A DNA stretch of 64,000 nucleotides, from positions 32,518-96,517 of the forward strand of contig JBGSJG010000008.1 in NCBI GenBank assembly GCA_041742135.1, read 5' to 3'. The notes under the pieces were generated by a model. It was not told the origin of the DNA, ran no database searches, and saw nothing but the letters and a program-made list of their open reading frames with translations. The position numbers and the translations under genes are program-made. Positions 20,727 to 52,449 of the stretch are shown here, piece after piece. The stretch comes from Patescibacteria group bacterium (GTDB taxonomy: Bacteria; Patescibacteriota; Microgenomatia; UBA8517). The first letter of the stretch is position 1; each line of letters begins with the position of its first letter.

Positions 20727-21593
20727 ATGACCCCAGAGAAGTCGGTGGAGAGTGTGAAATATTCTGATGAGTGGTTTTTGCGTCTTTATCTGGCAAGCGG
20801 CTCTGTAGAGGAGGCAATCGCAAGCTATCCGGAAAATCTACCAATCTCTGCTGCCAATTTTCACCGCCTAGTGGTCAGAAATGGCCTCGTAACGTCTGCT
20901 GGCCGCCATGTAAGCTTGCCCGAAACGCTGCATTTTTTTAGGCTTAAGGCTATGGAGCAAGATACTCCGCTTGAGCGCCTGTACCGCGAGTTCCCACCTT
21001 CTTTTAAAACTTCACTTTCTACTCTCCACAGAGTTTATCAGCGGATCGAAAAAGGCTTAGTGAATCGCAAAGCTGCGGCACTTTTGATTTCAGCCGAAAG
21101 TGATCGGACACAGATACTTATCGGCAGAGAGCTTACGGGCAACAGCCGCTATGGAAAGCACGCTGGGGATTTCTCGATTCCTATGGGTTTTTCAAGACAA
21201 GAAGAGTCATCAGTTGAATCGGTTGCAAGAGTGCTTCAACAGGAAGTTTTTGCAGGCGAAGCGGCAAAAGGCAATCTCCACACCGGCAGTGAACTTTTCA
21301 AAAAAATCGTACCCGAAAATATTGAACCAATAGCGTATTTTGATATTGTTGATGTTGAGGTGTCTGTTTATTGCCTGAGCATCCCAATAATTCACCCTGC
21401 CTTTGAGAGTTACAAACTTGCTGAGCATCAATTCCTAAATTTTGGCGATATGGAGGCTTTGTCTCTTCGCACAGGTGTGGGAGAGATTGTTAATATTTAT
21501 CAAAGCTATTTGGACAACCCTTACACTGTTGAATTCCCCGTTCGTTATAGATCAGAAGTTAATTTAGCACTTTCGCAAGTGTTTGAACTATAA
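20727..21593 (+). CDS. Hypothetical protein with degenerate Nudix-like core
   Basis: GFSRQEESSVESVARVLQQEV resembles a Nudix box with RE->RV and EE->QE substitutions. Confidence 0.3.
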   Translation: MTPEKSVESVKYSDEWFLRLYLASGSVEEAIASYPENLPISAANFHRLVVRNGLVTSAGRHVSLPETLHFFRLKAMEQDTPLERLYREFPPSFKTSLSTLHRVYQRIEKGLVNRKAAALLISAESDRTQILIGRELTGNSRYGKHAGDFSIPMGFSRQEESSVESVARVLQQEVFAGEAAKGNLHTGSELFKKIVPENIEPIAYFDIVDVEVSVYCLSIPIIHPAFESYKLAEHQFLNFGDMEALSLRTGVGEIVNIYQSYLDNPYTVEFPVRYRSEVNLALSQVFEL

Positions 21594-22742
21594 AAATGGC
21601 CCCCAGTCAGCTATTGGCATTACGTTGTTTGAGATAAAGGCCAAGGAAAATAGCACCACAGGTACAACAATAATAGCTAAAATTATCTTAAATTCTTTAG
21701 TTGATAATTCACGCCAAAAGGCCAAAAGAATATAAGGCATGATGGGGAGCGAATATCTCATCAAATCACGATGAGATACAAAAAATATTGTGACAGTAAA
21801 AATCCCCACAAACCAAGCAAGAACTACTTGCTTTTGCTTAACCAGAGCCATAAGCCCGAGAAGTGCAAAAATATAGATAAAAATTATCTCCTCTAGCCAG
21901 TGAGTGTTCACCCAAGGTTGTGAGTAGTTAAATATCTGGAAAGGTGGGAAAAAGAGGTGAATATTGTCCCCAGAGTTAAAATACGCTAGAAAATCTCCAA
22001 ACTGGATTTTGTAAAAATAAAACAGCCCCAATAAAGAAATTGGAATCAAAAAGATCGGATAAGCTCTATAGGAGAGCCCCGAAATCCAAGCAGGAACACT
22101 TTTGGTTGCCAAGTCTTTAAGCTTCGGCATGACAATAGCACAAAAATAGGCGACAAACAGAAGAATTGCAGGAGACTTTGTAAGCTGTGCAAGAGCTCCA
22201 AAGATTCCCGCCAACCAATATTGTTTTTTGTTAAAGTGATAAATTGAGGCCATTATTAGCCCAACAAACAAAGGTTCTGGCGAGCCAACCGCTTTCACTA
22301 TCAGCCACCGTGCTGGAAATACTGCAAAGACAAGTGACAGCCAAAGTGCAATTTTGGCGTTAGTAAATTTTTTGGCAAGTAAATAAAAATACGCAGAGCT
22401 AAGTACCGATCCAAACAGTGTCGCAAAAAGCATCCCCCAGGGGAACCCCAGAGGAAGGGCAAAAAGCCTTATCGTTAGAGGATAAAGAGGAAAGTGAGCT
22501 GCGTAATATTCCAATGGAAGGGGAAATGAGTAGTTTGCGGCGATACTGGGCAAATGGTAGAAGGTTTTTGCGATAACTATATATAGTGGTCCATCATAGT
22601 TGGCGGCGACATTTTGCATCCCACCTTCAGGGATCGGTATACCCAAGAAAGACTCAAAACCAAGCAGAAACGGAAGCCACAGCAACACTGTTGGTAGCAC
22701 TCCAAGAAGTACCAAGTATGCTAAAACTGACAAGTTCTTCAT
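21588..22742 (-). CDS. Multi-pass membrane protein, GT-C-like (possibly DUF2029/GT87-like mannosyltransferase)
   Basis: About 11 TM helices and aromatic-rich loops. One of the few minus-strand genes. Confidence 0.35.
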   Translation of the reverse strand: MKNLSVLAYLVLLGVLPTVLLWLPFLLGFESFLGIPIPEGGMQNVAANYDGPLYIVIAKTFYHLPSIAANYSFPLPLEYYAAHFPLYPLTIRLFALPLGFPWGMLFATLFGSVLSSAYFYLLAKKFTNAKIALWLSLVFAVFPARWLIVKAVGSPEPLFVGLIMASIYHFNKKQYWLAGIFGALAQLTKSPAILLFVAYFCAIVMPKLKDLATKSVPAWISGLSYRAYPIFLIPISLLGLFYFYKIQFGDFLAYFNSGDNIHLFFPPFQIFNYSQPWVNTHWLEEIIFIYIFALLGLMALVKQKQVVLAWFVGIFTVTIFFVSHRDLMRYSLPIMPYILLAFWRELSTKEFKIILAIIVVPVVLFSLAFISNNVMPIADWGPFL

Positions 22743-22792: not shown

Positions 22793-23497
22793 ATGAAAAC
22801 ACCCGAGCTCTCTGTATTTTTTCCAGCTTACAACGAGGAGGCAAACATTGCAACGACAGTGGAGCGTGCTACAAAGATTTTGCCCAACGTTGCAAAAAAA
22901 TGGGAAATTATTATTGTCGATGATGGCTCGCGCGATAAGACTCCTGAAATTTCAGACCGCCTTGCACGCAAACATAAAAACGTAAGAGCAATTCACCACA
23001 ACCCTAATCGCGGGTATGGTGGGGCCTTCAAGACCGGTTTTGAGTCTTCTAAATACGACTGGATAGCATTTACCGATTCAGACGGCCAGTTTGATTTGGC
23101 TGAAATTACGCAATTTATTGATAAACAAAAGAAGAGCCGTGCTGACATCGTAATTGGTTACTATAAAAAACGTCAGGTTTCAAAAACCAAGATTCTTACA
23201 AGTAAAATCTGGGAGTATGTTGTTTATTTTTTCTTTGGGCTTAAAGTGACAGACATCGATTGTGGGTTTAAATATGTATCTAAAAAAGTAGTCGATAAAA
23301 TATTTCCTCTAGAAAGTGAACGTGGAGCGTTTATCTCAAGTGAATTTCTTATTAAAGCTCGCAAAAGCGGGTTCAAAATAGTTGAAATTCCGATTACGCA
23401 CTACCCGAGAACAAAAGGCGCGGGAACCGGAAGAGACATAAAAGTCATCATAAAAAGCTTCGAAGATTTGTTTCGCCTTTGGCTAAAACTGCGATGA
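22793..23497 (+). CDS. Polyprenyl-phosphate sugar synthase (ArnC/DPM1-like GT2)
   Basis: LSVFFPAYNEEANI...IIIVDDGSRDKTPEI...FTDSDGQFD. Confidence 0.75.
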   Translation: MKTPELSVFFPAYNEEANIATTVERATKILPNVAKKWEIIIVDDGSRDKTPEISDRLARKHKNVRAIHHNPNRGYGGAFKTGFESSKYDWIAFTDSDGQFDLAEITQFIDKQKKSRADIVIGYYKKRQVSKTKILTSKIWEYVVYFFFGLKVTDIDCGFKYVSKKVVDKIFPLESERGAFISSEFLIKARKSGFKIVEIPITHYPRTKGAGTGRDIKVIIKSFEDLFRLWLKLR

Positions 23498-25023
23498 AAA
23501 AGCTAGGTGCCGCTATCCGCCGAAATAAAACTGAGTTTATTATTTTATCTTTAATTCTGCTTGTTGGAGCATTTTTGCGGTTTTACAAAATAGATCAATA
23601 CCTCACTTTTTTGGGAGACGAAGGCCGGGATGTTCTTTTGGTTAGAAGATTCTTAGTCGAGGGTGATATCTTTCTAATTGGGCCGGGCACTTCCATTGGT
23701 AACATGTATCTGGGGCCGCTTTATTATTACTTAATTGCGCCCTTTTTGTGGGTGGCGAATTATTCTCCTGTTGGGCCAGCAGCAATGATAGCAGGCTTAG
23801 GAGTGGTAACAATTGCTTTTGTTTGGTGGGTGGGCCGAGAGTTTTTTGGAAAGCATGCCGCAATAGTTGCTTCACTTTTGTATGCTATTTCGCCAACGGT
23901 AATCATTTATTCTCGCTCTTCGTGGAACCCCAACATTATGCCATTTTTTGCCCTTTTGTGTGTTTATTCGCTTTGGCGTGTTTACTCAAAAAACCAGCCT
24001 AGATGGCTACTAGTCCTTGGTGTGTCGTTTGCGTTTGTACTTCAGTCGCACTACTTGGGGCTCGTCTTGGCTCCAACACTTGCGGTTTATTGGTTTTTGT
24101 CTTTGATAAAAGTCTGGAGAAATAAAGATTCAAGAGTAAAGTTTATTCTTAATTCATTTTTTGGCTTTGCAATCTTCTTGCTATTAATGTCACCCTTGGC
24201 AATTTTTGATGCTCGGCACAATTGGCAAAACCTAGAAGCTATCAAAAAGTTTTTCTTTGAGCGGCAGACAACGGTTTCTGCAAGGCCATGGAATGCATTA
24301 CCTGTGATTTGGCCAGAGCTTAAAGAGATAAGCACTCGACTAGTGGGAGGGCGTAGCATGGTCTTTGGCGAGTGGGTTGCGTTGTTTTTAGCTGGAGGCT
24401 CAGTGTTTGCACTGGTTAAAAACAGGCTTGGGAGCAAAAAGTCTTTGATGGCCTTCGTGTTACTTTTAGTTTGGCTAGGGATGTCGCTTGTTGGGCTTGG
24501 GCTTTATAAACAACATATTTATGATCACTATTACGGCTTTTTCTTTGTAGTGCCATTTTTATTGCTAGGCGGTATTTCTCAGGCATTCATCAATCAATCT
24601 AAAATCCGTGGTGTTTGGATTGTCGCAACCGTGATAGTTTTTGCGGTTTATTTTAATTTGCAGGAAAATCCTTTAAGATCGAGCCCAAACAATCAGATGG
24701 GAAGGACGAGGCAGGCTGCCGATAGAATAATCGAGCTTGCAGACGGAAGGCCTCTTAATTTGGCTGTGTTGGCCGAGCGAAACTATGAAGACGCTTATCA
24801 GTATTTTTTGGAGGCTCGTAATGTGCAGGTTCTTGAAATCAACCCACAAGAGCTGGAAAACACACTCGCCCAGCAGCTTTTTGTGGTCTGTGAACTTCCC
24901 GAAGAGAAATGCGATCCGGTTCATAGTCCAAAAACGGAAATAGCGAATTTTGGCTGGAGCGTGGTCGAAAGTAAAGAAAATGTGGCTGGAGTAATTCTTT
25001 ACAAATTAGTTCACTCCGAGTAG
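23494..25023 (+). CDS. PMT/ArnT-like GT-C glycosyltransferase ('FLGDEGRD' subfamily)
   Basis: LRFYKIDQYLTFLGDEGRDVLLVRRFLVEGDIFLIGPGTSIGNMYLGPLYYY, with more than 10 TM helices. ATGA overlap with the upstream GT2 (start taken at the second Met, 23494). Confidence 0.6.
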   Translation: MKKLGAAIRRNKTEFIILSLILLVGAFLRFYKIDQYLTFLGDEGRDVLLVRRFLVEGDIFLIGPGTSIGNMYLGPLYYYLIAPFLWVANYSPVGPAAMIAGLGVVTIAFVWWVGREFFGKHAAIVASLLYAISPTVIIYSRSSWNPNIMPFFALLCVYSLWRVYSKNQPRWLLVLGVSFAFVLQSHYLGLVLAPTLAVYWFLSLIKVWRNKDSRVKFILNSFFGFAIFLLLMSPLAIFDARHNWQNLEAIKKFFFERQTTVSARPWNALPVIWPELKEISTRLVGGRSMVFGEWVALFLAGGSVFALVKNRLGSKKSLMAFVLLLVWLGMSLVGLGLYKQHIYDHYYGFFFVVPFLLLGGISQAFINQSKIRGVWIVATVIVFAVYFNLQENPLRSSPNNQMGRTRQAADRIIELADGRPLNLAVLAERNYEDAYQYFLEARNVQVLEINPQELENTLAQQLFVVCELPEEKCDPVHSPKTEIANFGWSVVESKENVAGVILYKLVHSE

Positions 25024-25053: not shown

Positions 25054-26037
25054 ATGACATACCGTGAATCGCAAGAAATATTGGCAAAAATTAAGAGTGC
25101 TAATAAGATCTTAATCAATTGCCACCAACGCCCGGATGTAGACTCAATAAGTAGCGCACTGTCTATGTGCCAGGCTCTGCATCAGCTTGGAAAAGAAGTA
25201 AAAATTATCTGCCCAGACGAAAAGTTGCCAGAGTTAGATTTTTTAGAATGTTACGAACATTTTGCAACAATTGACTTTGCAAACTTCAATTTTAGCGATT
25301 ATGATTTGTTTATTATTCTTGATTCTGCAAGCCAAGAGGTGGTGACGGGCAGTAAAGAAATTAAGCTTCCAAATATTCCAACCATCGTGATCGATCACCA
25401 CATGACCAATCTAAGCTTTGGAGACATTAATTTGATCGACGAGCAAAGATCGGCTGCCACAGAACTTTTATACCTGTTGTTTGTCGACTGGGGTATAAAA
25501 ATTACCCGACCTCTGGCGACTTCACTTCTGACCGGTATATTGGGCGATACTGGTGCTTTCGAGTATCACAATACAACTCCAAAGACTCTCCAGATAGCTT
25601 CGAAGCTTATGAAAAAAGGAGCTGACAAAGACGAGATACTTCTTAAAATATTTAGAAGTAAGCAACTTAATCTTTTGAAATTTTGGGGCAAAGTGTTAGA
25701 TGAGTTGGAGGTTGATGAAAGCGGCAAATTTACCTGGTGCGCAATTGCCTATGCGGATTATCAAAAACTTGGTTTTCCCCAGACTGCTCGTGAATCGGCA
25801 AGCTCATCGTTTATCAGAATGGTGGAGGGAACAGAGTTTGGGATCGTGATGCTTGAAGAGGAGCCCGGCGTGCTTCGTGTGAGCCTTAGATCCAGAAGCT
25901 CGGATTTTGATGTTTCAGAAATTGCATTAGCCTTGGGAGGAGGAGGGCACTCTGGTGCGGCCGGAGCAACAGTGATAAACGGATCGTTCGAGGAGTCTGT
26001 TGAAAAAGTTGTAGACACAGCTCGAAAATTTATATAA
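25054..26037 (+). CDS. DHH/DHHA1 phosphoesterase (NrnA-like), copy 1
   Basis: INCHQRPDVDSISS, IVIDHH, GILGDTGAF, LGGGGHSGAAGA. Confidence 0.75.
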   Translation: MTYRESQEILAKIKSANKILINCHQRPDVDSISSALSMCQALHQLGKEVKIICPDEKLPELDFLECYEHFATIDFANFNFSDYDLFIILDSASQEVVTGSKEIKLPNIPTIVIDHHMTNLSFGDINLIDEQRSAATELLYLLFVDWGIKITRPLATSLLTGILGDTGAFEYHNTTPKTLQIASKLMKKGADKDEILLKIFRSKQLNLLKFWGKVLDELEVDESGKFTWCAIAYADYQKLGFPQTARESASSSFIRMVEGTEFGIVMLEEEPGVLRVSLRSRSSDFDVSEIALALGGGGHSGAAGATVINGSFEESVEKVVDTARKFI

Positions 26038-27015
26038 ATGAATTACAAAGAATCAAAAAAGATACTTCAGTTAATTAAACAAGCTAAAAATATCTTGATC
26101 AATTGCCATGTGCATCCAGACGCTGACTCGGTTGGAGGAGCATTGGCTTTGGCGCTAGTCATAAAAAGATTGGATAAAAAAGTGAAGATAGTTTGTGCTG
26201 ACCCAATTGGCGATGAACTTAGGTTTTTAACTAGTTCAGAGTTAATCGAAGAGACTGATTTTTCAAAATTAGATTATGAAGAATATGACTTGTTTTTGGC
26301 TTTGGATACATCAACTTGGGATAGGGTGTGTGGAAGTAAGGACTTGCCTTTGCCAGATATTAAAATTATTCAAATAGATCACCATAAGACAAATTCTATG
26401 TATGGCCAAATTAATCTAGTTGATTACACCAAAAAATCAAATTGCGAGATTTTGTACAAGGTCTTTGAGGATTGGCAGGTTAAAATTGACGAGAAGCTGG
26501 CGCAATATTTGCTGACTGGAATCATTGGTGACACGGGAAGTTTCCAATATGAAACGCCACCAGAAACTTTGGAGCTTGCGGCAAAACTCATGAGATTAGG
26601 GGGAAACAAGGAGGAAATCAGCAAAAACTTATCTAGAAGTGTGGAATTTGGTGACATTAAAATAATCGGGGAGTTATTAAGGAATGCCGTCTTCGATAAA
26701 AAACACAAGTTTATATGGTGTGCGATACCGTATAAATTTATCAAAAATTATTCTGAAGACCCGAAATTAGACGCAGTCGATTTGCTGCTTCAAGGGACTA
26801 GAGGAGCTACGTTTGGGATTAGGATGGTCGAAAAAGCACCTAAAGAGGTAAGTGTAAGTTTAAGAGCGAGGGATGATTTTGACACGTCGAAAATTTCAGT
26901 AGAACTTGGCGGAGGCGGACACCCAGTAGCTTCAGGCGCGAAAATTGTTGGTATGAACTTTAATGAGGTTGTTGAAAAAGTTCTTCAGACTGCGAGGAAG
27001 TATGCCAGCCAGTAA
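26038..27015 (+). CDS. DHH/DHHA1 phosphoesterase (NrnA-like), copy 2
   Basis: INCHVHPDADSVGG, IQIDHH, GIIGDTGSF, LGGGGHPVASGA. Starts at the nucleotide after the copy 1 stop. Confidence 0.75.
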   Translation: MNYKESKKILQLIKQAKNILINCHVHPDADSVGGALALALVIKRLDKKVKIVCADPIGDELRFLTSSELIEETDFSKLDYEEYDLFLALDTSTWDRVCGSKDLPLPDIKIIQIDHHKTNSMYGQINLVDYTKKSNCEILYKVFEDWQVKIDEKLAQYLLTGIIGDTGSFQYETPPETLELAAKLMRLGGNKEEISKNLSRSVEFGDIKIIGELLRNAVFDKKHKFIWCAIPYKFIKNYSEDPKLDAVDLLLQGTRGATFGIRMVEKAPKEVSVSLRARDDFDTSKISVELGGGGHPVASGAKIVGMNFNEVVEKVLQTARKYASQ

Positions 27016-27044
27016 GCTGATATAATTTCTTATAAACTATTCGC

Positions 27045-28052
27045 ATGAATTACACAGAATCTGTCGCCATAAAGCAAAAAATTGATTCTTCAGAGCGGAT
27101 TTTAGTCAACTGCCACCACAATCCGGATGCGGATTCTGTGGGAAGTGCCTTGGCTATGGCTCGGCTTTTGCGTTTTTGGAAAAAAGATGTAAGGATAATT
27201 TGCCCGACAGAAGTTCCCTCGAATCTACAATTTTTACTTGGAGAAGAAAAAATTGAGACCGTAGATTTCTCGAGTTTTGAATTTGGAAGTTATGATCTTT
27301 TTATCGCGCTTGATTCGTCAAGCTGGAGCAGAGTCGCTGGATCACAGGATGTTTTAAAGCCAGATATTCCCTTTGTCGTGATTGATCACCACAAGTCCAA
27401 TAAACGCTTTGGTGAAATAAGTCTGATTGTTCCCGAGGCTGCTGCCAATTGTGAAGTTTTGTATTATCTTTTTTCAGACTGGGGAGTGTCCCCTGATGTG
27501 GAGAGAGATTTTCCTGACATCCACACGCCTTTACTGACTGGAATAATCGGAGACACTGGAGCTTTCCGCTTTCCAGAAGCAGACACGGCAACTTTCGCTG
27601 TTGCAAGTGAGCTCATGAAGTTGGCGAATAAAGACAAAATAATATTTAATTTGTATCAATCATACGGCGAAAATCATGTTATGGTTTGGCGCGCCCTTTT
27701 AGATAATTTGCGAGTAGATCACGAGCATAAGTTTGTTTATTCATTTATCCCTAAAGAAATTCTGGAAAAAAATGGAAAGCCCGCAAACGCCAAAAGCGAG
27801 CTGGCTGATATGTTGTTTCAAAGTATTGAAGGAACAGATTTTGGGCTTGTGGGAGCGGAGGATAATGGTTATATCTCTGTAAGTTTCAGAAGCCGTACGG
27901 GAGTAGATGTTTCCAAAATTGCTGAGAGTCTCGGTGGTGGGGGGCACGCATGGGCTTCGGCGGCTCGAGTTTATGATGTAAACTATGATAATGCAGTACA
28001 AACGATTTTGGACCACGCTCGCGAGTTTGCGAAAAAGCTTCAAAAAGCATAG
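27045..28052 (+). CDS. DHH/DHHA1 phosphoesterase (NrnA-like), copy 3
   Basis: VNCHHNPDADSVGS, VVIDHH, GIIGDTGAF, LGGGGHAWASAA. Confidence 0.75.
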   Translation: MNYTESVAIKQKIDSSERILVNCHHNPDADSVGSALAMARLLRFWKKDVRIICPTEVPSNLQFLLGEEKIETVDFSSFEFGSYDLFIALDSSSWSRVAGSQDVLKPDIPFVVIDHHKSNKRFGEISLIVPEAAANCEVLYYLFSDWGVSPDVERDFPDIHTPLLTGIIGDTGAFRFPEADTATFAVASELMKLANKDKIIFNLYQSYGENHVMVWRALLDNLRVDHEHKFVYSFIPKEILEKNGKPANAKSELADMLFQSIEGTDFGLVGAEDNGYISVSFRSRTGVDVSKIAESLGGGGHAWASAARVYDVNYDNAVQTILDHAREFAKKLQKA

Positions 28053-29511
28053 GACTTACTACTTGTTGTTAATTGTAATTTTATTTATCGCCCTATTTTT
28101 ACGTGTATATAGGGCAGGGGAGGTGCTGGGGTTTTATTTTGATCAAGGCCGCGACGCCCTTCACATCTGGGACCTAATCCACAAAGGAGACATATTTTTG
28201 ATTGGGCCCACGACCGGAATTGCTGGCATTTTTCGTGGCCCATTTTATTATTACCTCATTACTCCTTTTTACTTTTTGTCAGGCGGAAACCCAACTCTTC
28301 CAGCTAATTTTCTGGCCTTAACTTCAGTATTAGGACTCGCCGTAATGGGCTATTTGGCTACAAAAGTTCATTCAAAAGAATCTGCTTTCTTTGGCTTAGT
28401 TTTAGCTACATTTTCTTTTGGTCTAATTTTTGATTCTCGTTGGCTTTCAAACCCAACTCCCATGCTTTTGATTTCAATGCTTTTCCTCGCATGCATTTTT
28501 GCCGCAATAGAATCTAAAAAATGGGCTTGGCCAGCAATCTCATTCTCGGCAGGTATTTCCCTTTTTCACTTCGGCAGTTCGGGCGAATTTTTCTATTTCC
28601 CTGCACTTTTAATATTCCTGATTTGGAAACGCAAAGATTTAAGTCCGAAAATTATAGCCCTATCGATATTTTTGTTTATTCTTTCCGCGTCGCCTTTGAT
28701 ACTTTTTGATCTTAAAAACAATTTCTTACTGACCAACAATATTAAAAGTTTTCTTTTTGAGCGGGAGAGCTTTAAAACCGATTTTTTTGTTATTTTGGCC
28801 GAAAGATTGGAGTTTTACAGGGCAACATTTTTGGGTAGAATATTTCCAAATCTCACCACAGCAGCCAACATATTTTTAGCTGTAATAATAATTAATTTGG
28901 TTGCTAAATTACCAAAACTTTTACATTCTAAATATTTTAAGGCTCTTGCAATCCTTTTTCTGTCTCCCCTGATTGGCCTTTTGTTTTTTCAAGGTAACGA
29001 AGGCAATGTTTATGGATATTACCTGACCGGTTACTTTTTGATTTTCTTTCTTTTAATGGGAATCTCCCTCGCGGAGCTCTGGAAAAGTGTTATCGGAAAA
29101 GTTTTTGTCTTGGTATTTTTGGGCTTTATGATTCAGGCAAACCTGCCTTTGGCTTTTTCTCGGATGAGCGATGGCGGCGATGGGCCTGACACGATTATCC
29201 TTCGAAACCAAACTAAGGCTATTGATTGGATTTATAAAGACGCTGCTGGGGTAGAATTTAATGTTGATGTTTACGTACCGCCCGTAATCCCTTATGCATA
29301 TGATTATCTTTTCACCTGGAAAGAAAGTTTACCTGAATATGGCGGGAAGGTGGAGAAGTTGACACCGCTTTTGTATACTTTATACGAGGTTGATCCGCCA
29401 CACCCAGAGCGTTTGGAAGCTTGGCTTAAAAGGCAAGCGGGGATTGGAGCAGTTGACAGTGAAGCAGAATTTGGAGGCATTACTGTCCAGAGACGGCATA
29501 GGCTCAACTAG
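27985..29511 (+). CDS. PMT/ArnT-like GT-C glycosyltransferase ('FLGDEGRD' subfamily paralog)
   Basis: LRVYRAGEVLGFYFDQGRDALHIWDLIHKGDIFLIGPTTGIAGIFRGPFYYY. Overlaps the upstream stop by 68 nt; the true start may be downstream at a non-ATG codon. Confidence 0.55.
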   Translation: MIMQYKRFWTTLASLRKSFKKHRTYYLLLIVILFIALFLRVYRAGEVLGFYFDQGRDALHIWDLIHKGDIFLIGPTTGIAGIFRGPFYYYLITPFYFLSGGNPTLPANFLALTSVLGLAVMGYLATKVHSKESAFFGLVLATFSFGLIFDSRWLSNPTPMLLISMLFLACIFAAIESKKWAWPAISFSAGISLFHFGSSGEFFYFPALLIFLIWKRKDLSPKIIALSIFLFILSASPLILFDLKNNFLLTNNIKSFLFERESFKTDFFVILAERLEFYRATFLGRIFPNLTTAANIFLAVIIINLVAKLPKLLHSKYFKALAILFLSPLIGLLFFQGNEGNVYGYYLTGYFLIFFLLMGISLAELWKSVIGKVFVLVFLGFMIQANLPLAFSRMSDGGDGPDTIILRNQTKAIDWIYKDAAGVEFNVDVYVPPVIPYAYDYLFTWKESLPEYGGKVEKLTPLLYTLYEVDPPHPERLEAWLKRQAGIGAVDSEAEFGGITVQRRHRLN

Positions 29512-29523
29512 GCTATACTACAA

Positions 29524-30249
29524 TTGCATATGTCAGTTTTTCTTTCGATCATTATTCCAGCCCACAACGAAGAGTTTAGGCTTCCTCCTGCGTTTAACAA
29601 AATTGATAGTTACCTTAAAAAACAGAAATATTCTTACGAGGTAATAGTCGTTGAAAATGGAAGCCGGGATAAGACTGTTGAGGTAACACGTGAGTTTGCC
29701 AAGACTCACCCATATGTAAAATTGATGATCGTCCGTACCCGAGGCAAAGGTCTTGCGGTCAAAGCTGGGATGCTTAAGGCCTCTGGTGAATATCGATTCA
29801 TTTGTGATTCTGACTTGTCCATGCCGATCGAAGAAATATCAAAGTTTCTGCCGCCAGAAACCAAAGGATTTGATGTAATGATAGGTGTGAGGGAGGGCAA
29901 GGGAGCCAAGCGCATTGGGGAGCCCTTAAAACGACATGTTATCGGAAGAATATTTAACTTCATAATTAAGCTTACAATATTGCCGGGATTTGAAGACACA
30001 CAGTGCGGCTTTAAGATGTTTAGTGGGGTAGCGGCAGATAAGTTGTTTAAAATCCAGAAAATCAACGGAATAGGTTTTGACATAGAGCTTATCTTTTTAG
30101 CGCAAAAATTAGGAATGAAGATTAAGGAGATCCCGATAATATGGTATTTTGATGCCGACAGTAGGATGAAGCTCATGAAAGACTCAATGCATGCGCTTTT
30201 GGAAATCTGGGAAATCAGAAAGAGCTGGTGGAGAGGGGAATATGTATAA
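29524..30249 (+). CDS. Polyprenyl-phosphate sugar synthase (ArnC/DPM1-like GT2)
   Basis: LSIIIPAHNEEFRL...VIVVENGSRDKT...FICDSDLSMP. TTG start. Confidence 0.7.
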   Translation: MHMSVFLSIIIPAHNEEFRLPPAFNKIDSYLKKQKYSYEVIVVENGSRDKTVEVTREFAKTHPYVKLMIVRTRGKGLAVKAGMLKASGEYRFICDSDLSMPIEEISKFLPPETKGFDVMIGVREGKGAKRIGEPLKRHVIGRIFNFIIKLTILPGFEDTQCGFKMFSGVAADKLFKIQKINGIGFDIELIFLAQKLGMKIKEIPIIWYFDADSRMKLMKDSMHALLEIWEIRKSWWRGEYV

Positions 30250-31762
30250 AAAGTGGAAGTTCACAATTTTGGGCCTTCTAATTATTCTTGGAGCCGCGCT
30301 TTTTATACGCATTTACAGGCTGGATTTGATACCAGTTTTTGTTGATGAAGCAATTTACATTCGCTGGGCACAGGTCATGAGAGCCGAGTCGACTCTTCGT
30401 TTTTTGCCGTTATCTGACGGCAAGCAGCCTTTGTTTATGTGGGCCGTGATGCCAGCCCTTAAGGTGATTGCGGATCCTTTAATTGCCGGCAGGGTAGTGT
30501 CTGTGGCGACTGGGCTGGGAACTACGATTGGAGTATTTGCCCTAAGCTACACACTATTCAAGTCGAGAAAAGCTGCGCTTTTTGCCTCACTCCTCTACGG
30601 CCTCTCCCCTTTCGCGGTTTTTTTCGATCGCATGGCTTTGGTTGACTCAATGCTTGCCTTTTTTGGTGTATGGACTTTGACCTTTTCTGTTTTAGCCGTA
30701 AAAAACCTAAGGCTTGATTTGGCTATGATTGCTGGATTTTTTATGGGCGGCGCATGGCTGACCAAATCCCCCGCCTTGTTTTTTTGGTTGATGCTTCCGG
30801 CAAGCTTGCTATTTATCCCTCAAAGCCGCAAAAAAAGTAAATTAATTACTTTGATACACGCAGGAATGCTCTTGGGAGTTGTTCTACTCATTTCATATGC
30901 AATGTATAACGTTCTAAGACTTGGGCCGAATTTTCACCTTATCGGCTCCAGAAACTTGGATTATGTTCACCCTTACACACATATTTTGCAAAGCCCGCTG
31001 GATCCGTTCTTGCCGCACATTGACCGTGCTCTTGAGTGGTTTGAAACAATGGGCCCTAGCGCCGTGATCTTATTAGTTTTGGGAGCCATAGTCGCCAACT
31101 TTCAGAGGTTTAAAAAAGAGATCATTATACTTTTGATTTGGGGGATGTTGCCAGTTGTTATTGAGGCGGAATTTAGCCGTGTCTTTACTTCACGATATAT
31201 TTTCTTTGTCCTCCCGCCAATTTTTGTATTGGCCGGATCAATTATTAAGAAGTACAAATTCCCCCCATTTGTGTACGTATCATATGGATTGGTATTTTTA
31301 TTTTTAGCTCAAGCTCTATTGTTTTACTTGCCTTTTTTCCATAAACCAGAAGAATCAATGATGCCTGAACGAGATGGCTATCTGTCCGACTGGACGGGTG
31401 GATACGGAATCCGCGAGGCTGCTGGTATTATTACGCAAAAAAGGAACGCCAACCAAGACAAGGAAATTGTCGTGGGGACCGAAGGCTATTTTGGCACCCT
31501 TCCTGACGGCCTTCAGATTTATTTGGAGAAGGAGCCAAATATTACAGTCATCGGAGTTGGTATTGATTTGTTGGAAGTGCCCGAAAGCTTAACAAGCTCG
31601 GCCGCGGCAGGGAACATCACATATTTATTGGCAAACCGCTCAAGGCTTCGTTTTGGTGAGCCTTTCGATCAATATGGCCTAAGAAAAGTGGCGGCTTTTG
31701 AAAAACCAACCCAAAAAGATGGCACGCACGACACGATGTATCTCTTGGAGGTCCTTCCATGA
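30242..31762 (+). CDS. PMT/ArnT-like GT-C glycosyltransferase
   Basis: FIRIYRLDLIPVFVDEAIYIRWAQV (DE motif in the first loop), with more than 10 TM helices. Start taken at ATG 30242 (8-nt overlap with the upstream stop at 30249). Confidence 0.6.
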   Translation: MYKKWKFTILGLLIILGAALFIRIYRLDLIPVFVDEAIYIRWAQVMRAESTLRFLPLSDGKQPLFMWAVMPALKVIADPLIAGRVVSVATGLGTTIGVFALSYTLFKSRKAALFASLLYGLSPFAVFFDRMALVDSMLAFFGVWTLTFSVLAVKNLRLDLAMIAGFFMGGAWLTKSPALFFWLMLPASLLFIPQSRKKSKLITLIHAGMLLGVVLLISYAMYNVLRLGPNFHLIGSRNLDYVHPYTHILQSPLDPFLPHIDRALEWFETMGPSAVILLVLGAIVANFQRFKKEIIILLIWGMLPVVIEAEFSRVFTSRYIFFVLPPIFVLAGSIIKKYKFPPFVYVSYGLVFLFLAQALLFYLPFFHKPEESMMPERDGYLSDWTGGYGIREAAGIITQKRNANQDKEIVVGTEGYFGTLPDGLQIYLEKEPNITVIGVGIDLLEVPESLTSSAAAGNITYLLANRSRLRFGEPFDQYGLRKVAAFEKPTQKDGTHDTMYLLEVLP

Positions 31763-32478
31763 GTATTTATTTGTCTTTGGTAATTCCTGTTTTTAACGAA
31801 GAGGAAATAATCAAAAAAAATCTTGATGTGGTTACAAGGTTTTTAAAAAAGTTAGGTAAGAGCTATGAAATTATTGTTGTTGATGATGGCTCAAGCGACA
31901 GCACTGTGAAAATTGTAGAAGGCATCGAAGACAAGAACGTTAAATTGATCATGCTTCGCCAGAATCGTGGGAAAGGAGCGGCGCTTCGCGCGGGGGTTGC
32001 CAAAGCCTCAGGAAAATACATCCTATTTTCTGACGCGGACTTGTCCGTGCCTATCGAGTTTTTGGATGAGATAATTAAAAAGCTTCAGATGCACGAAGTA
32101 GCTGTGGCTTCAAGAAGGGTTCAGGGGGCCGTGATTAAAACGCATCAGCCTCCACTGCGAGAACTTATGGGCAGGGTCTTTACAAAGTTAACTCAACTTC
32201 TCATCCAAAGCGGCATCGCCGATTTTACCTGCGGTTTTAAAGGCTTTACCTATGAATCAGGCAAAAAACTATTTTCTCAAAGCCGTATTGATCGCTGGGC
32301 TTATGATGCAGAGATCATATTTTTAGCTCACAAATACGGATACAAAATTGCGCAAGTGCCTGTAGTTTGGGAGAACAGAGTTGACACAAGAGTCAAGATG
32401 GGGCGTGCTGCAGTGGAGTCTTTTTTTGATGTTTTGCGGGTACGTGTGTGGGAGCTAATGGGTAAATATGAAAGTTAA
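31759..32478 (+). CDS. Polyprenyl-phosphate sugar synthase (ArnC/DPM1/CsbB-like GT2)
   Basis: LSLVIPVFNEEEII...IIVVDDGSSDST...FSDADLSVP. Confidence 0.75.
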   Translation: MSIYLSLVIPVFNEEEIIKKNLDVVTRFLKKLGKSYEIIVVDDGSSDSTVKIVEGIEDKNVKLIMLRQNRGKGAALRAGVAKASGKYILFSDADLSVPIEFLDEIIKKLQMHEVAVASRRVQGAVIKTHQPPLRELMGRVFTKLTQLLIQSGIADFTCGFKGFTYESGKKLFSQSRIDRWAYDAEIIFLAHKYGYKIAQVPVVWENRVDTRVKMGRAAVESFFDVLRVRVWELMGKYES

Positions 32479-34093
32479 GCTGCTTCTTTTATTGGCCTTA
32501 ATACCAACTTTCTGGGCGCTTACTCGTCCTGGGTATTTTCCAATGCACGACGACATTCAAGGTATGCGTGTGCTTCAAATGCATAAGTGCGTATTGGATT
32601 TTCAACTTCCTTGCAGGTGGGTGCCTGACATGGGTTACGGATACGGTTATCCTCAATTTAATTACTATGCTCCACTGCCGTACTATTTTATGGAAGGCTT
32701 TGTCATCGCGGGGAATCCGATTTTAGACACCGTAAAAGTTGGCTTTGCGGCGAGCTTGATTCTTTCCGCTTACTCAATGTACCTCCTGGCAAGTTACGTA
32801 TGGGGTAAAAAGGGTGGTTTTATTAGTGCGATATTTTATTCTTACGCACCTTATCGAGCTGTAGATATTTACGTTCGCGGGGCAATGGGGGAGGCGTGGG
32901 CGTTTGTGTTTTTGCCACTCGTGCTTCTTTTTTCTCTGAGAATCCTGGATGGGAAGAAAGCCGTTTTACCCTTTGCCCTAAGTGTCGCCGGGTTACTTTT
33001 ATCGCATAATATATCGATTGTTATGTTTGCGCCGTTTTGCGTTCTGTTTGTTTTCACTCTCAGGCGCTTCAACATAGACAGTCTCAAGCGTCTTTCTGTT
33101 GGAGCTTTTTGGGGACTGTCGTTGTCTGCCTTTTTTGTATTTCCAGCATTCCTTGAGAAAAACTTAGTTCATGTGGATACTATCCTTGCAGGATACTTTA
33201 ATTTTTTGGCTCATTTTGTTGGGATCCGGCAGTTACTTTTTTCAACGCATTGGGGATATGGAAGCTCGTCACTTGGCCCTTTGGATGGAATGAGCTTAAG
33301 CGTTGGTCTTTGGCACTGGGCCGTGCCGGCACTTTCACTGTTAGTTTTATTGCTACTAAAAAAATACAGTGAACTTAGGTTGGCTTTAATTTTTGTAATA
33401 TTCGGCGGATTAGCACTTCTCCTGATTCACCCAAGATCGCAAATTATTTGGAATAATCTGGATATTCTCTCGTTCGTTCAGTTCCCTTGGCGCTTTTTAA
33501 TGGTTGCTGTTTTGTTTTTCTCATTAGCGGCTGGCTCTGTCGGGGTTCTTCTTGCTCGCTACTCCAAATTAATTATTCTAAGTTTACTTTTTCTTTTGAT
33601 TCTTTTTAACGCAAGCTACTTTTTCCCAAAGGCCTATGTTGATATCGACGATCGCGCAAGATTCAGTGGAAACAACTGGATGCTTCAGCAAACAATAAGT
33701 ATCTTTGATTATCTACCTAAATCTGCAAAATTTCCGCCATCAAGTGAAGCACCTGATAAGCCATTCGCCACTGAGGGTGAAGTAACTATTGTTGATGGCT
33801 TGAAGGGCACCAATTGGCAAAGGTGGAATGTTATTGTTCATAGCGGCGAAAGTGAAATCGCTTTTCCTCTTTACAACTTCCCCACTTGGGAGGCTAAAAT
33901 CGATGGAAAGAAGGCAGAGGTTTTTGAGAGTGGGGACCTGGGGCTGGTAACCCTTGAGGTTTCCAATGGTGTTCACGAAGTAAGTCTTGTTCTTCGAGAT
34001 ACTCTCGTGCGCACAAGTGCAAATGTTGCGACTATCTTAGCCCTTCTTGCAATACCTGTCGTGCTTTATAACAATAAAAAGAAGCTATGGTAA
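32468..34093 (+). CDS. GT-C-like membrane glycosyltransferase, 'YFPMHDD' family (YfhO-like?), paralog 1
   Basis: YFPMHDDIQGMRVL...CRWVPDMGYGYGYPQFNYYAPLPYY and YRAVDIYVRGAMGEAWA. About 12 TM helices, a beta-rich soluble C-terminal domain and a terminal TM. Confidence 0.5.
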   Translation: MKVKLLLLLALIPTFWALTRPGYFPMHDDIQGMRVLQMHKCVLDFQLPCRWVPDMGYGYGYPQFNYYAPLPYYFMEGFVIAGNPILDTVKVGFAASLILSAYSMYLLASYVWGKKGGFISAIFYSYAPYRAVDIYVRGAMGEAWAFVFLPLVLLFSLRILDGKKAVLPFALSVAGLLLSHNISIVMFAPFCVLFVFTLRRFNIDSLKRLSVGAFWGLSLSAFFVFPAFLEKNLVHVDTILAGYFNFLAHFVGIRQLLFSTHWGYGSSSLGPLDGMSLSVGLWHWAVPALSLLVLLLLKKYSELRLALIFVIFGGLALLLIHPRSQIIWNNLDILSFVQFPWRFLMVAVLFFSLAAGSVGVLLARYSKLIILSLLFLLILFNASYFFPKAYVDIDDRARFSGNNWMLQQTISIFDYLPKSAKFPPSSEAPDKPFATEGEVTIVDGLKGTNWQRWNVIVHSGESEIAFPLYNFPTWEAKIDGKKAEVFESGDLGLVTLEVSNGVHEVSLVLRDTLVRTSANVATILALLAIPVVLYNNKKKLW

Positions 34094-51830: not shown

Positions 51831-52449
51831 CTATAGATTGTTGTTTTTGATTCTTGTATGCTGCCCGTTCATCCTCTCTATCACCTTTCACTTTCCCGAT
51901 TTTGTAGATGCGTGGGTTGCTTATCCAAAGTTAGCTCAAGACAAAGTTCAATACCTTCTCTCCGATGGCTTGTTGGCAAATGCGCTTGAGATGAGGCAGA
52001 CAAACATGTATGGCTCAGGAGTGATTTTTTACCTTTCAAAATTACTGTATGGAAAGCCCATTTTGTACATTTCCGAGTTTATTTCGTGGCTTTCATATTT
52101 TTCGCCAAGGTTTTATTTTCAAGCGGGAGATGCGAGCCTTTTTTCAACCAGATTTGTAGAGCCGATTGTTTTTTTACTTTCGCCGATTTGGGTTTTTGGT
52201 TTTTTTACGAGCATTAAGCTTAGGAAGTTTAAAGTAATTGTTTTGTATGTGGCATTTACCCTCTTGGCCTACATGTCAGGCAAGCGCGAGTTTGCATATT
52301 TATTGCCAGCAATCATGTTCATGATTTATTTTATATATTTAGGCTCAACTCGTCTTTTGCCCACCAGATGGTTTAGAAGGTATCTTGCTGTGTCAGTGGT
52401 CTATGGGGTGTACATTCTGCTTCGACTAGCTTACGCAATTAACATATGA
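51814..52449 (+). CDS. Small polytopic membrane protein (hypothetical)
   Basis: About 5 hydrophobic segments. Start taken at ATG 51814 (17-nt overlap with upstream). Confidence 0.3.
   Translation: MQKGINYRLLFLILVCCPFILSITFHFPDFVDAWVAYPKLAQDKVQYLLSDGLLANALEMRQTNMYGSGVIFYLSKLLYGKPILYISEFISWLSYFSPRFYFQAGDASLFSTRFVEPIVFLLSPIWVFGFFTSIKLRKFKVIVLYVAFTLLAYMSGKREFAYLLPAIMFMIYFIYLGSTRLLPTRWFRRYLAVSVVYGVYILLRLAYAINI

What the first reader, a model, noticed from the sequence alone, without database searches (positions are those of the whole stretch)
25054..28052. Three tandem, diverged NrnA-like DHH/DHHA1 phosphoesterase genes embedded in the glycosylation cluster
Three back-to-back ~330-aa ORFs each keep all catalytic motifs (DxD near the N-terminus, DHH, GDTG, GGGH). 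They are clearly diverged from one another (e.g. INCHQRPDVDSISS / INCHVHPDADSVGG / VNCHHNPDADSVGS). Stand-alone DHH-DHHA1 enzymes degrade nanoRNA, pAp, or linear/cyclic dinucleotides (NrnA, DhhP/Pde2). Most bacteria have one. A retained triplet in what appears to be a streamlined genome suggests three substrate specificities, possibly oligoribonucleotides and c-di-AMP/pApA, or nucleotide scavenging in a symbiont. The placement between GT-C cassettes is unexplained. It may simply be a conserved essential island that splits the cluster.
Basis: partly seen in the sequence, partly recalled or inferred. Interest (0 to 1): 0.55.

Follow-up and report, generated by a model that had tools for sequence, protein, structure and literature searches.

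The report
Three tandem NrnA-like phosphodiesterase paralogs
A tiny-genome Woesebacteria (CPR) bacterium carries three diverged, apparently active copies of a housekeeping enzyme that chops very short RNA and dinucleotides into single nucleotides; this is a lineage-specific gene expansion, not a new kind of system.

Summary
ORFs 25054-26037, 26038-27015 and 27045-28052 (+) each encode a stand-alone DHH+DHHA1 protein (327/325/335 aa). They are about 44% identical to each other, and every catalytic and substrate-binding motif is intact.

The closest solved relative is Thermotoga TM1595, a linear-dinucleotide phosphodiesterase. None reaches the NCBIfam NrnA cutoff, and all lack the Bacillus-type R-x-R-x-R patch.

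In bootstrapped trees the three copies and the single-copy Microgenomates genes form one clade. It excludes TM1595, DhhP, Pde2 and mycobacterial NrnA. They are therefore lineage-specific in-paralogs, not one NrnA plus one Pde2 plus one DhhP.

The placement is ancestral. In about 19 single-copy relatives the one DHH gene sits in the same order: GT2, GT-C, DHH, overlapping GT-C. The array occurs only in a narrow Woesebacteria clade.

Slots 1 and 3 are stable. The middle slot holds two deeply diverged, mutually exclusive types whose distribution conflicts with the flanking genes. It is frameshifted in one genome and absent in another.

Distinct substrate ranges are plausible because group-specific residues cluster beside substrate-contact motifs, but this is untested. 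Tandem DHH paralogs with different specificities are already known in Mycoplasma bovis.

Verdict: real, ordinary to modestly interesting, a new member of a known kind.

The parts
25054..26037 (+). DHH/DHHA1 paralog 1 (327 aa; ortholog group C1). It is the slowest-evolving copy and the one most like TM1595. Group-specific residues: E170 after GDTGAF, R275-x-S277-x-R279, GGGH-S-G-AAG.
   Evidence: NrnA model 119.6 bits against a cutoff of 350; TM1595 E 6.8e-46; C1 100% bootstrap.
26038..27015 (+). DHH/DHHA1 paralog 2 (325 aa; middle slot, type C2a). Its ATG directly follows the copy 1 stop codon (TAA-ATG). Relatives carry either this type or a second deep type (C2b), a frameshifted copy, or nothing in this slot.
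   Evidence: TM1595 E 3.1e-33; model pLDDT 94.2.
27045..28052 (+). DHH/DHHA1 paralog 3 (335 aa; group C3). It has a 5-residue insertion after the DHH core, fixed S275, W301 and a G304A change in GGGH-x-x-ASG. It is the most widely conserved lineage, and its orthologs are the sole gene at this locus in L091, L012 and L018.
   Evidence: 100% bootstrap; pLDDT 94.4; TM1595 TM-score 0.85-0.91.
22793..25023 (+). Upstream conserved neighbours: a small GT2 (22793-23497) and a GT-C/PMT_2 glycosyltransferase (23479-25023). These are context and probable co-transcription partners, not shown to be functionally linked.
   Evidence: Pfam; same order in about 19 single-copy and 9 multi-copy loci; no excess of terminator-like sites.
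27985..30249 (+). Downstream conserved neighbours: a GT-C/PMT_2 ORF (27985-29511) whose start overlaps the copy 3 end by 68 nt, then a GT2 (29524-30249).
   Evidence: (downstream GT-C start lies within -127 to +4 nt of the DHH gene's end in all 17 single-copy loci where it was detected; L021 ends at the DHH gene).

Best explanation
The three genes encode cytoplasmic, metal-dependent DHH/DHHA1 phosphodiesterases of the stand-alone 'NrnA-like' class, closest in sequence and predicted fold to Thermotoga TM1595. The DHH domain supplies the two-metal catalytic site. The DHHA1 domain binds a 5'-phosphorylated short substrate through R279/R281 and GGGH. The products are nucleoside monophosphates from linear dinucleotides and 2-4-mer RNA, the last step of RNA turnover and nucleotide recycling.

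The genes arose by tandem duplication, in place, of a single ancestral gene that already lay between GT-C glycosyltransferase genes in Microgenomates. The duplication happened within one Woesebacteria lineage. All copies stay under purifying selection and keep the core activity, so they overlap functionally. Fixed differences next to the substrate-contact motifs suggest partly specialised substrate ranges (base, length, or pApA/pGpG versus nanoRNA). Slots 1 and 3 are stable; the middle slot is a replaceable, dispensable extra.

Shown: identity, motifs, fold, duplication history, synteny, constraint. Inferred: substrates, specialisation, co-transcription.
For: - Domains and motifs.
- Closest solved proteins: TM1595 at E 6.8e-46, 3.1e-33 and 3.9e-25 for copies 1-3. 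The copy 3 model (pLDDT 94.4) superposes on TM1595 at TM 0.85-0.91 and on Rv2837c at 0.83-0.87. The copy 2 model has pLDDT 94.2.
- The Bacillus R-x-R-x-R motif maps to positions 275/277/279. These read R-S-R, S-S-R and S-S-R here, and H-S-R in TM1595. Loss of the first two Arg was proposed to favour dinucleotides (PMC5593865).
- In-paralogs: ingroup monophyly is 99.5% against TM1595, DhhP, Pde2/SH1221 and MsNrnA.
- Array restricted to a narrow clade: 80 of 80 genome loci and 65 of 67 metagenome loci with a DHH hit carry one gene. Arrays occur in L082-L089, L092, L094 and L095.
- Ancestral placement.
- Purifying selection: synonymous sites are saturated (pS >= 0.72) while dN is 0.10-0.29 between orthologs.
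- No concerted evolution: paralog identity is 36-48% within and between genomes.
- Group-specific fixed residues cluster at 170-174, directly after GDTGxF. They flank the aromatic residue equivalent to BsNrnA F162, which stacks on the substrate base (PMC5593865). They also cluster at 301/304 inside GGGH-x-x-ASG.
- Precedent: adjacent paralogs Mbov_0327/0328 differ in substrate range and are needed for nucleotide recycling in a genome-reduced bacterium (PMC7373297).
Against: No enzymatic data exist for any Patescibacteria member, and substrate range in this family cannot be read from sequence (PMC9757072). All three score far below the NCBIfam NrnA equivalog cutoff. Differential retention of different paralog lineages as the sole gene at the locus, together with loss or frameshift of the middle copy, could equally mean plain redundancy without specialisation. 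Deep branching among C1, C2a, C2b and C3 is unresolved (C2a+C2b 28% bootstrap). The trees are neighbour-joining only. 'Single copy' was judged only within +-7-10 kb of each locus.
Confidence: 0.65

Rival explanations
1. Plain redundancy or dosage. The copies do the same job, and the array is a birth-and-death by-product of the tandem duplication that is rampant in this region (more than 12 GT-C and 13 GT2 paralogs). There is no meaningful division of substrates.
For: The middle gene is lost in L088 and frameshifted in L087. Genomes with one gene at the locus keep different paralog lineages. The region is rich in tandem paralogs.
Against: Slots 1 and 3 are both kept in all seven genomes that carry a C1-type first gene and are long enough to judge (the window, L082, L084, L085, L087, L088, L089; L094 likewise). 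This holds although synonymous sites are saturated. Each group has its own fixed residues next to substrate-contact motifs. Pure redundancy is rarely stable over that depth in streamlined genomes (general knowledge).
Confidence: 0.25
2. A split like the Mycoplasma one: one copy is a DhhP/Pde2-type c-di-AMP (and pApA) phosphodiesterase tied to second-messenger signalling, and the others are nanoRNases.
For: Precedent in M. bovis and M. pneumoniae (PMC7373297, PMC9779919). All copies resemble enzymes reported to act on pApA.
Against: No copy is orthologous to DhhP or Pde2. TM1595, the closest relative, is reported to cleave cyclic dinucleotides only at non-physiological concentrations (PMC9779919). 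No DAC motif occurs in the window (weak, only 64 kb).
Confidence: 0.2
3. The paralogs assemble as heterodimers. NrnA-like enzymes are obligate dimers, so the array would encode subunits of mixed enzymes rather than three independent ones.
For: Stop-start adjacency of copies 1 and 2 (TAA-ATG) and tight spacing suggest co-translation. Solved relatives form side-by-side dimers (PMC8861645).
Against: No direct evidence. L088 works with copies 1 and 3 only, and other genomes work with one gene, so each can presumably homodimerise.
Confidence: 0.1
4. The DHH enzymes are functionally part of the glycosylation machinery, for example by removing a nucleotide by-product that inhibits the GT2 polyprenyl-phosphate glycosyltransferases. 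That would explain the conserved GT2 > GT-C > DHH > GT-C order and the overlapping reading frames.
For: The gene order is conserved down to about 41% protein identity, with the downstream GT-C start overlapping the DHH 3' end. No excess of terminators lies between them.
Against: The whole region (TrmD, Yip1, GT2-GtrA and so on) is collinear in these genomes, so shared ancestry suffices. Roizmanbacteria-like loci, Saccharibacteria, Dojkabacteria and all non-CPR homologs lack the linkage. The proteins keep the nucleic-acid-type DHHA1 motifs (GGGH, R279). No such role is known for the family.
Confidence: 0.05

Closest known systems
Thermotoga maritima TM1595 (stand-alone DHH/DHHA1 linear-dinucleotide phosphodiesterase; PDB 5O1U, 5O25, 5O4Z)
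   Same: It is the best sequence hit for copies 1 and 2 and is tied for best with copy 3. It is the best structural match to the copy 3 model (TM 0.85-0.91). It has the same length, the same two-domain architecture and all catalytic motifs. It has the same reduced Arg patch (x-x-S-x-R-x-R/K) instead of the Bacillus R-x-R-x-R.
   Different: Identity is only 28-30%. It is not orthologous: TM1595 groups with Thermotogota loci at 100%, outside the Patescibacteria clade. Copy 1 replaces the Arg after DTGxF with Glu, and copy 3 changes GGGH-x-x-AAG to GGGH-x-W-ASA.
Mycoplasma bovis Mbov_0327/Mbov_0328 (adjacent DHH/DHHA1 paralogs)
   Same: These are tandem stand-alone DHH/DHHA1 paralogs in a genome-reduced, host-dependent bacterium. 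They are reported to differ in substrate range and to secure nucleotide recycling (PMC7373297). This is the best functional analogy.
   Different: There are two copies rather than three, in a different phylum, from an independent duplication. No sequence comparison was made here. There is no glycosyltransferase context.
Bacillus subtilis NrnA / Staphylococcus aureus Pde2 (NCBIfam NF053633 NrnA equivalog)
   Same: Same family, fold and catalytic residues (H20, D24, D26, D80, H103, H104 and D156 correspond to H24, D28, D30, D90, H115, H116 and D165) and the GGGH motif.
   Different: Scores are 119.6, 102 and 68.6 bits against a cutoff of 350. The R262/R264 patch that binds the 5' phosphate of 3-4-mers is incomplete or absent. 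Identity is 24-28%.
Borrelia DhhP, Mycobacterium Rv2837c/CnpB and GdpP catalytic domain (c-di-AMP/pApA phosphodiesterases)
   Same: Homologous fold, with structural matches at TM up to 0.83-0.87 for Rv2837c and DhhP. pApA hydrolysis is a likely shared activity.
   Different: Not orthologous. There are no GdpP-type N-terminal TM/PAS/GGDEF domains. The link to c-di-AMP signalling is untested.

Membership tests
DHH/DHHA1 phosphoesterases, stand-alone 'NrnA-like' class (Pfam PF01368 + PF02272) | DHH domain and DHHA1 domain both above the Pfam gathering scores, with no other domain, about 310-340 aa | tested here: met
   DHH 66.9, 58 and 61.2 bits (cutoff 28.1); DHHA1 35.9, 29.4 and 44.3 bits (cutoff 25.9). 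Lengths 327, 325 and 335 aa.
DHH/DHHA1 phosphoesterases, stand-alone 'NrnA-like' class (Pfam PF01368 + PF02272) | Catalytic motifs I-IV (H, DxD, D, DHH, D of GDTG) and the DHHA1 GGGH motif | tested here: met
   all are present in the three window proteins. They are essentially invariant across 23, 12 and 36 orthologs; the only departures are one H115N in C1 and one G295N in C3.
DHH/DHHA1 phosphoesterases, stand-alone 'NrnA-like' class (Pfam PF01368 + PF02272) | Bilobal DHH/DHHA1 fold | tested here: met
   Copy 3 model: pLDDT 94.4, Foldseek E 1e-27, TM 0.85-0.91 to TM1595. Copy 2 model: pLDDT 94.2 with the same secondary-structure order. Copy 1 was not modelled.
NrnA sensu stricto (Bacillus type; NCBIfam NF053633 equivalog) | Score at or above the curated equivalog cutoff (350 bits) | tested here: not met
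   119.6, 102.0 and 68.6 bits.
NrnA sensu stricto (Bacillus type; NCBIfam NF053633 equivalog) | R-x-R-x-R substrate patch (BsNrnA R262, R264, R266) | tested here: not met
   The alignment to S. aureus NrnA/Pde2 and SH1221 maps the motif to positions 275/277/279. Copy 1 reads R-S-R; copies 2 and 3 read S-S-R.
NrnA sensu stricto (Bacillus type; NCBIfam NF053633 equivalog) | 5'-3' exonuclease activity on 2-4-nt RNA | not testable with these tools
   Requires enzymology (PMC9757072 defines the activity).
TM1595-type linear dinucleotide phosphodiesterase | Orthology with TM1595 | tested here: not met
   TM1595 groups with Thermotogota loci L057 and L080 (100%). The window copies lie in a Microgenomates clade (99.5%) that excludes it.
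TM1595-type linear dinucleotide phosphodiesterase | Preference for 5'-pNpN over longer RNA and cyclic dinucleotides | not testable with these tools
   Only an indirect hint: the reduced Arg patch resembles that of TM1595 (PMC5593865).
DhhP/Pde2-type c-di-AMP phosphodiesterase | Orthology with Borrelia DhhP or S. aureus Pde2 | tested here: not met
   both references fall outside the 99.5% ingroup. Identity is 23-30%.
DhhP/Pde2-type c-di-AMP phosphodiesterase | Co-occurrence with a diadenylate cyclase (DisA_N/DAC) in the genome | tested here: inconclusive
   No RHR[AS]A or DGAxx motif in the six-frame translation of the window, and no DisA_N among the 25 Pfam families listed of 43 found. Only 64 kb of the genome was available.
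GdpP | N-terminal transmembrane helices, PAS and degenerate GGDEF domains before DHH/DHHA1 | tested here: not met
   only DHH and DHHA1, starting at residue 18 of proteins about 330 aa long.
Family II inorganic pyrophosphatase | DHH domain followed by DHHA2 (not DHHA1) | tested here: not met
   One search finds DHHA1. The PPase models match only the DHH half, far below cutoff. Structural matches have TM of about 0.5.
Known anti-phage defence or counter-defence proteins (PADLOC) | Match to a PADLOC family model | tested here: not met
   no hits for the three copies or for the L082 middle copy.

The most novel reading that the evidence does not exclude
The middle slot of the array is a long-lived polymorphic cassette. 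Two ancient, mutually exclusive NrnA-like lineages (C2a and C2b, only 41-48% identical) are swapped or differentially kept between closely related Woesebacteria. Their distribution contradicts the flanking genes. If that reflects selection rather than chance loss, the middle enzyme could target a variable nucleotide pool, for instance host- or phage-derived cyclic or linear oligonucleotide signals met by an epibiont. Alternatively, the deeply conserved, overlapping GT-C > DHH > GT-C arrangement could mean that DHH enzymes have an unrecognised role in envelope glycosylation.
Probability: 0.07. Interest if true: 0.65.

Novelty: new member of a known kind. Interest (0 to 1): 0.3.

Why it matters
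Stand-alone DHH/DHHA1 enzymes carry out the final step of RNA degradation in bacteria that lack Orn. Their sub-classes cannot yet be told apart from sequence (PMC9757072).

CPR bacteria are thought to depend on salvaged nucleotides (general knowledge). A maintained expansion of this enzyme in a streamlined genome therefore points to nucleotide recycling as a pressure point, as shown experimentally for Mycoplasma bovis (PMC7373297).

The array also offers a natural experiment. It holds three to four in-paralog lineages about 44% identical, with group-specific changes right beside the substrate-contact motifs. These could help map specificity determinants in the family.

It does not reveal a new system or mechanism.

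Tried and rejected
1. dN/dS per copy. Synonymous sites are saturated in every genome pair (pS 0.72-0.89). Only dN and the qualitative conclusion dN << dS could be used.

2. The small ORFs (131 and 211 aa) between copies 2 and 3 in L082, L084 and L089 as a decayed fourth DHH gene. Rejected: no DHH HMM signal even at E <= 10, and only weak START-like (AHSA1/DUF3284) Pfam hints.

3. Search for a four-copy array to support differential loss from a larger ancestor. None was found in 80 genome loci, 75 metagenome loci and 11 look-ups. The metagenome scan yielded only two more clade members, on contigs of about 4 kb.

4. Faster evolution of the middle copy as the cause of its low cross-genome identity. 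Rejected: within a type, its dN (0.145, 0.258) is like that of copy 3 (0.161, 0.280).

5. Concerted evolution or gene conversion among copies. Rejected: paralog identity is the same within and between genomes.

6. Defence-system membership. No PADLOC hits.

7. Literature linking NrnA and Patescibacteria. No papers found.

8. Promoter and terminator scan. Terminator-like sites are at chance level (10 against 10.5 expected). Promoter-like sites are about two standard deviations above the shuffled expectation (29 against 18.8, sd 4.7), but they are scattered consensus matches and not informative.

9. Maximum-likelihood phylogeny. No ML program was available, so only bootstrapped neighbour-joining was run. 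Deep relationships among the paralog groups remain unresolved.
Full report
**1. Observation**

The window holds three consecutive + strand ORFs at 25054-26037, 26038-27015 and 27045-28052, of 327, 325 and 335 aa.

Each protein hits Pfam DHH and DHHA1 above the gathering scores and has no other domain. The copies are 42-44% identical to one another.

Copy 2's ATG directly follows copy 1's TAA. Copy 3 starts 29 nt after copy 2. The downstream GT-C ORF begins 68 nt before copy 3 ends.

**2. Source and surroundings**

Homolog names place the window in Candidatus Woesebacteria (Microgenomates, Patescibacteria/CPR). For example, the 75%-identical P0008 comes from 'Candidatus Woesebacteria bacterium RIFCSPHIGHO2_01_FULL_44_21'.

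A Pfam census was run on 52 ORFs of at least 150 aa; 53 were listed, and an antisense ORF inside a GT2 gene was left out. It gives 13 Glycos_transf_2, 12 PMT_2 (GT-C) and 4 GT4. The few non-glycosylation genes are the three DHH genes, TrmD, NUDIX, HAD and a sortase.

The immediate neighbours are:
- GT2 (22793-23497) and GT-C (23479-25023) upstream;
- GT-C (27985-29511) and GT2 (29524-30249) downstream.

Terminator-like sites in 21-31 kb are at chance level. With the tight spacing, this is compatible with co-transcription, but it does not prove it.

**3. What the proteins are**

All catalytic residues defined for NrnA-like enzymes are present. BsNrnA H20, D24, D26, D80, H103, H104 and D156 (PMC9757072) correspond to H24, D28, D30, D90, H115, H116 and D165 here. 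The DHHA1 GGGH motif and R279/R281 are also present.

These residues are essentially invariant in 23 orthologs of copy 1, 12 of copy 2 and 36 of copy 3; the only departures are one H115N and one G295N.

The best solved relative is the Thermotoga TM1595 linear-dinucleotide phosphodiesterase, with E-values of 6.8e-46, 3.1e-33 and 3.9e-25 for copies 1-3. For copy 3 the D. radiodurans RecJ-like protein scores about the same.

AlphaFold models of copies 3 and 2 are confident (pLDDT 94.4 and 94.2). The copy 3 model matches TM1595 at TM 0.85-0.91, and then Rv2837c, Borrelia DhhP, S. aureus NrnA/Pde2 and Bacillus NrnA.

None of the three qualifies as NrnA in the strict sense:
- The NCBIfam equivalog scores are 119.6, 102 and 68.6 bits against a cutoff of 350.
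- The Bacillus-type R-x-R-x-R patch maps to positions 275/277/279 (alignment to S. aureus NrnA and SH1221). It reads R-S-R in copy 1 and S-S-R in copies 2 and 3, like H-S-R in TM1595.

Schmier et al. proposed that lack of the first two arginines goes with a preference for dinucleotides (PMC5593865). That is a lead, not a test.

**4.

I added the aligned regions of five solved references: TM1595, Borrelia DhhP, S. aureus Pde2/NrnA, SH1221 and M. smegmatis NrnA.

- The three window copies, all array members and the single-copy Microgenomates genes form one clade at 99.5% bootstrap. It excludes every reference.
- Patescibacteria as a whole are recovered at 90.5%.
- TM1595 groups with Thermotogota loci at 100%.

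The copies are therefore lineage-specific in-paralogs. No copy can inherit a function from Pde2, DhhP or NrnA by orthology.

**5. How widespread the array is**

- In 80 reference-genome loci found with the three-copy alignment, every locus has one DHH/DHHA1 gene within +-10 kb.
- Of 75 metagenome loci, 67 contain a DHH hit; 65 of these have one gene, two of them split by frameshifts.
- Arrays occur only in close relatives of the window. These are L082/83, L084, L085/86, L087, L089 and L094 (three copies), L095 (at least two; the contig ends), L088 (two copies), and a more distant L092 (three copies).

**6. The placement is ancestral**

I searched all loci with HMMs built from the window's GT-C and small GT2 genes. 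About 19 single-copy loci show the same order: GT2 (-2.2 kb), GT-C (-1.5 kb), DHH, then a GT-C. These loci have 36-52% identity to copy 1 and include Woesebacteria, Microgenomatus, unnamed Patescibacteria and one record labelled Jorgensenbacteria. In all 17 of them where the downstream GT-C was detected, its start lies within -127 to +4 nt of the DHH gene's end.

Four Roizmanbacteria-like loci (L011, L013, L015, L017) lack GT-C or GT2 genes within 4 kb. So do all Saccharibacteria, Dojkabacteria and non-CPR loci.

The wider region (TrmD, Yip1, GT2-GtrA and so on) is also collinear in these genomes. Shared ancestry is therefore enough to explain the linkage.

The triplication happened in place.

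**7. History of the copies**

Bootstrapped neighbour-joining (200 replicates) gives four groups.

| Group | Members | Support |
|---|---|---|
| C1 | first-slot genes of 7 syntenic genomes | 100% |
| C3 | third-slot genes, plus the third gene of L092, L093, and the sole genes of L091, L012 and L018 | 100% |
| C2a | middle genes of the window and L084 | 100% (with L087 85%; with L087 and single-copy L090 81%) |
| C2b | middle genes of L082, L089 and L085; L094 and L095 by 69-77% identity | 100% |

C2a and C2b are 41-48% identical, which is paralog level. They are joined in only 28% of replicates.

The copy 1 tree puts L084 with L082+L089 (89-92%). A 131-aa ORF shared by L082, L084 and L089 agrees with that. 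Yet L084 carries the C2a middle gene, while L082 and L089 share C2b with the more distant L085.

The gap is not due to faster evolution of the middle gene. Within a type its dN matches that of copy 3: 0.145 against 0.161 for L082-L089, and 0.258 against 0.280 for window-L084.

So either an ancestor had at least four paralogs and one of the two middle types was repeatedly lost, or the middle gene was replaced by recombination between relatives. No four-copy array was found.

In L087 the middle gene is frameshifted inside motif I, which means a pseudogene or an assembly error. In L088 it is absent and a 142-nt spacer remains.

**8. Constraint and specialisation**

Synonymous sites are saturated in all comparisons (pS >= 0.72), while dN between orthologs is 0.10-0.29. 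All copies are therefore under purifying selection, though a ratio cannot be computed.

Paralogs are more alike in the catalytic DHH half (48-49%) than in the substrate-binding DHHA1 half (34-39%).

Twenty-four positions are each at least 90% conserved within C1 and within C3 but differ between them. They cluster in three places:
- At 170-174, directly after GDTGxF: E-Y-H-N-T in C1 against R-F-P-E-A in C3 (R-H-S-N-A in TM1595). Position 171 corresponds to BsNrnA F162, which stacks on the substrate base (PMC5593865).
- At 246-251.
- At 301/304 inside GGGH-x-x-ASG: G and G in C1, W and A in C3.

Glu at position 170 is rare in the wider family (9 of 357) but fixed in C1. This is what substrate specialisation would look like, but it remains inference.

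Against strict specialisation, genomes with one gene at the locus retain different paralog lineages (C3 type or C2a type). This implies each lineage can still do the essential job, with the caveat that only +-7-10 kb was inspected.

**9. Mechanism proposed**

The proteins are Mn2+/Mg2+-dependent two-metal phosphodiesterases that work as dimers. The DHHA1 domain binds a 5'-phosphorylated dinucleotide or 2-4-mer and closes onto the DHH active site, releasing NMPs. These steps follow from family knowledge (PMC9757072, PMC5593865, PMC9779919).

In a CPR cell that relies on salvage (general knowledge), this is the terminal step of RNA turnover and nucleotide recycling.

The closest functional analogy is the adjacent pair Mbov_0327/0328 in Mycoplasma bovis. 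That pair has different substrate ranges and is needed for growth unless nucleotides are supplied (PMC7373297).

I put 0.65 on 'active TM1595-like short-oligonucleotide/dinucleotide phosphodiesterases from in-place duplication, overlapping in core function, with partial specialisation'.

| Rival | Confidence |
|---|---|
| Pure redundancy or dosage | 0.25 |
| One copy is a c-di-AMP phosphodiesterase | 0.20 |
| Heterodimers | 0.10 |
| Role in glycosylation | 0.05 |

The rivals are not all mutually exclusive with the main reading.

**10. Novelty and verdict**

I found no paper linking NrnA-like enzymes and Patescibacteria, and no defence-family match.

The proteins are ordinary members of a well-known family, and tandem paralogs with split specificities are already documented. 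The array is a new member of a known kind.

Three modest extras emerged:
- the deep conservation of the GT-C > DHH > GT-C arrangement;
- the stable outer slots;
- the polymorphic, dispensable middle slot with two ancient types.

Interest: 0.3.

Noticed in passing
window 2025-6668 (+): A 1547-aa single ORF fuses two GT2 domains, a Polysacc_synt (Wzx-like flippase) domain and a GT4 domain. This is an unusually large multi-glycosyltransferase/flippase fusion.
   Followed up: no
window, whole 64 kb (e.g. 22793-25023, 27985-40486, 47201-58991): The region is an extreme tandem expansion of alternating small GT2 and ~510-560-aa GT-C (PMT_2-like) genes: 13 GT2 and at least 12 GT-C, nearly all on the + strand. 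The acceptors and the reason for so many paralogs are unknown.
   Followed up: partly
window 27985-28052; L002-L022, L082-L093: The downstream GT-C ORF starts inside the 3' end of the last DHH gene (68 nt overlap in the window). In all 17 single-copy relatives where it was detected, its start lies within -127 to +4 nt of the DHH gene's end, which suggests translational coupling.
   Followed up: partly
window 21588-22742 (-): A 384-aa polytopic membrane protein is transcribed divergently from the GT2-GT-C-DHH block. It has only a weak PMT_2 hit (E 6e-4). A gene of 344-389 aa on the minus strand is present at the same place in every syntenic locus, mostly with no Pfam hit on record (L090: weak PMT_2).
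   Followed up: no
L084 11979-13396; L082 11979-13006; L089 11975-12370: Small genes are inserted between the middle and third DHH genes in some relatives. One is a shared 131-aa ORF with weak AHSA1/DUF3284 (START-like) hints. L082 also has a 211-aa ORF with a weak 2TM-effector PADLOC hint. L084 also has a SET-domain gene and a DUF5615/DUF433 toxin-antitoxin-like pair.
   Followed up: partly
L087 10984-11100: The middle DHH gene is frameshifted within motif I...ILINCHQSP in one frame, PDSVSSALAM in another, with the second Asp of DxD missing. This is a pseudogene or a single-sample assembly error.
   Followed up: partly
L005, L007, L010, L011, L013, L015, L018 and others (record titles): Many MAG records titled 'uncultured Gammaproteobacteria bacterium' carry loci that by gene content and phylogeny are Woesebacteria/Microgenomates-like, so the taxonomic labels look wrong. 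A record labelled Jorgensenbacteria (L016) groups at 100% with a Woesebacteria locus (L019).
   Followed up: no
L082 15467-16048; L089 14876-15457: A NUDIX hydrolase gene sits right after the GT-C downstream of the DHH array in some relatives. The window also has one NUDIX ORF somewhere, whose position was not located.
   Followed up: no
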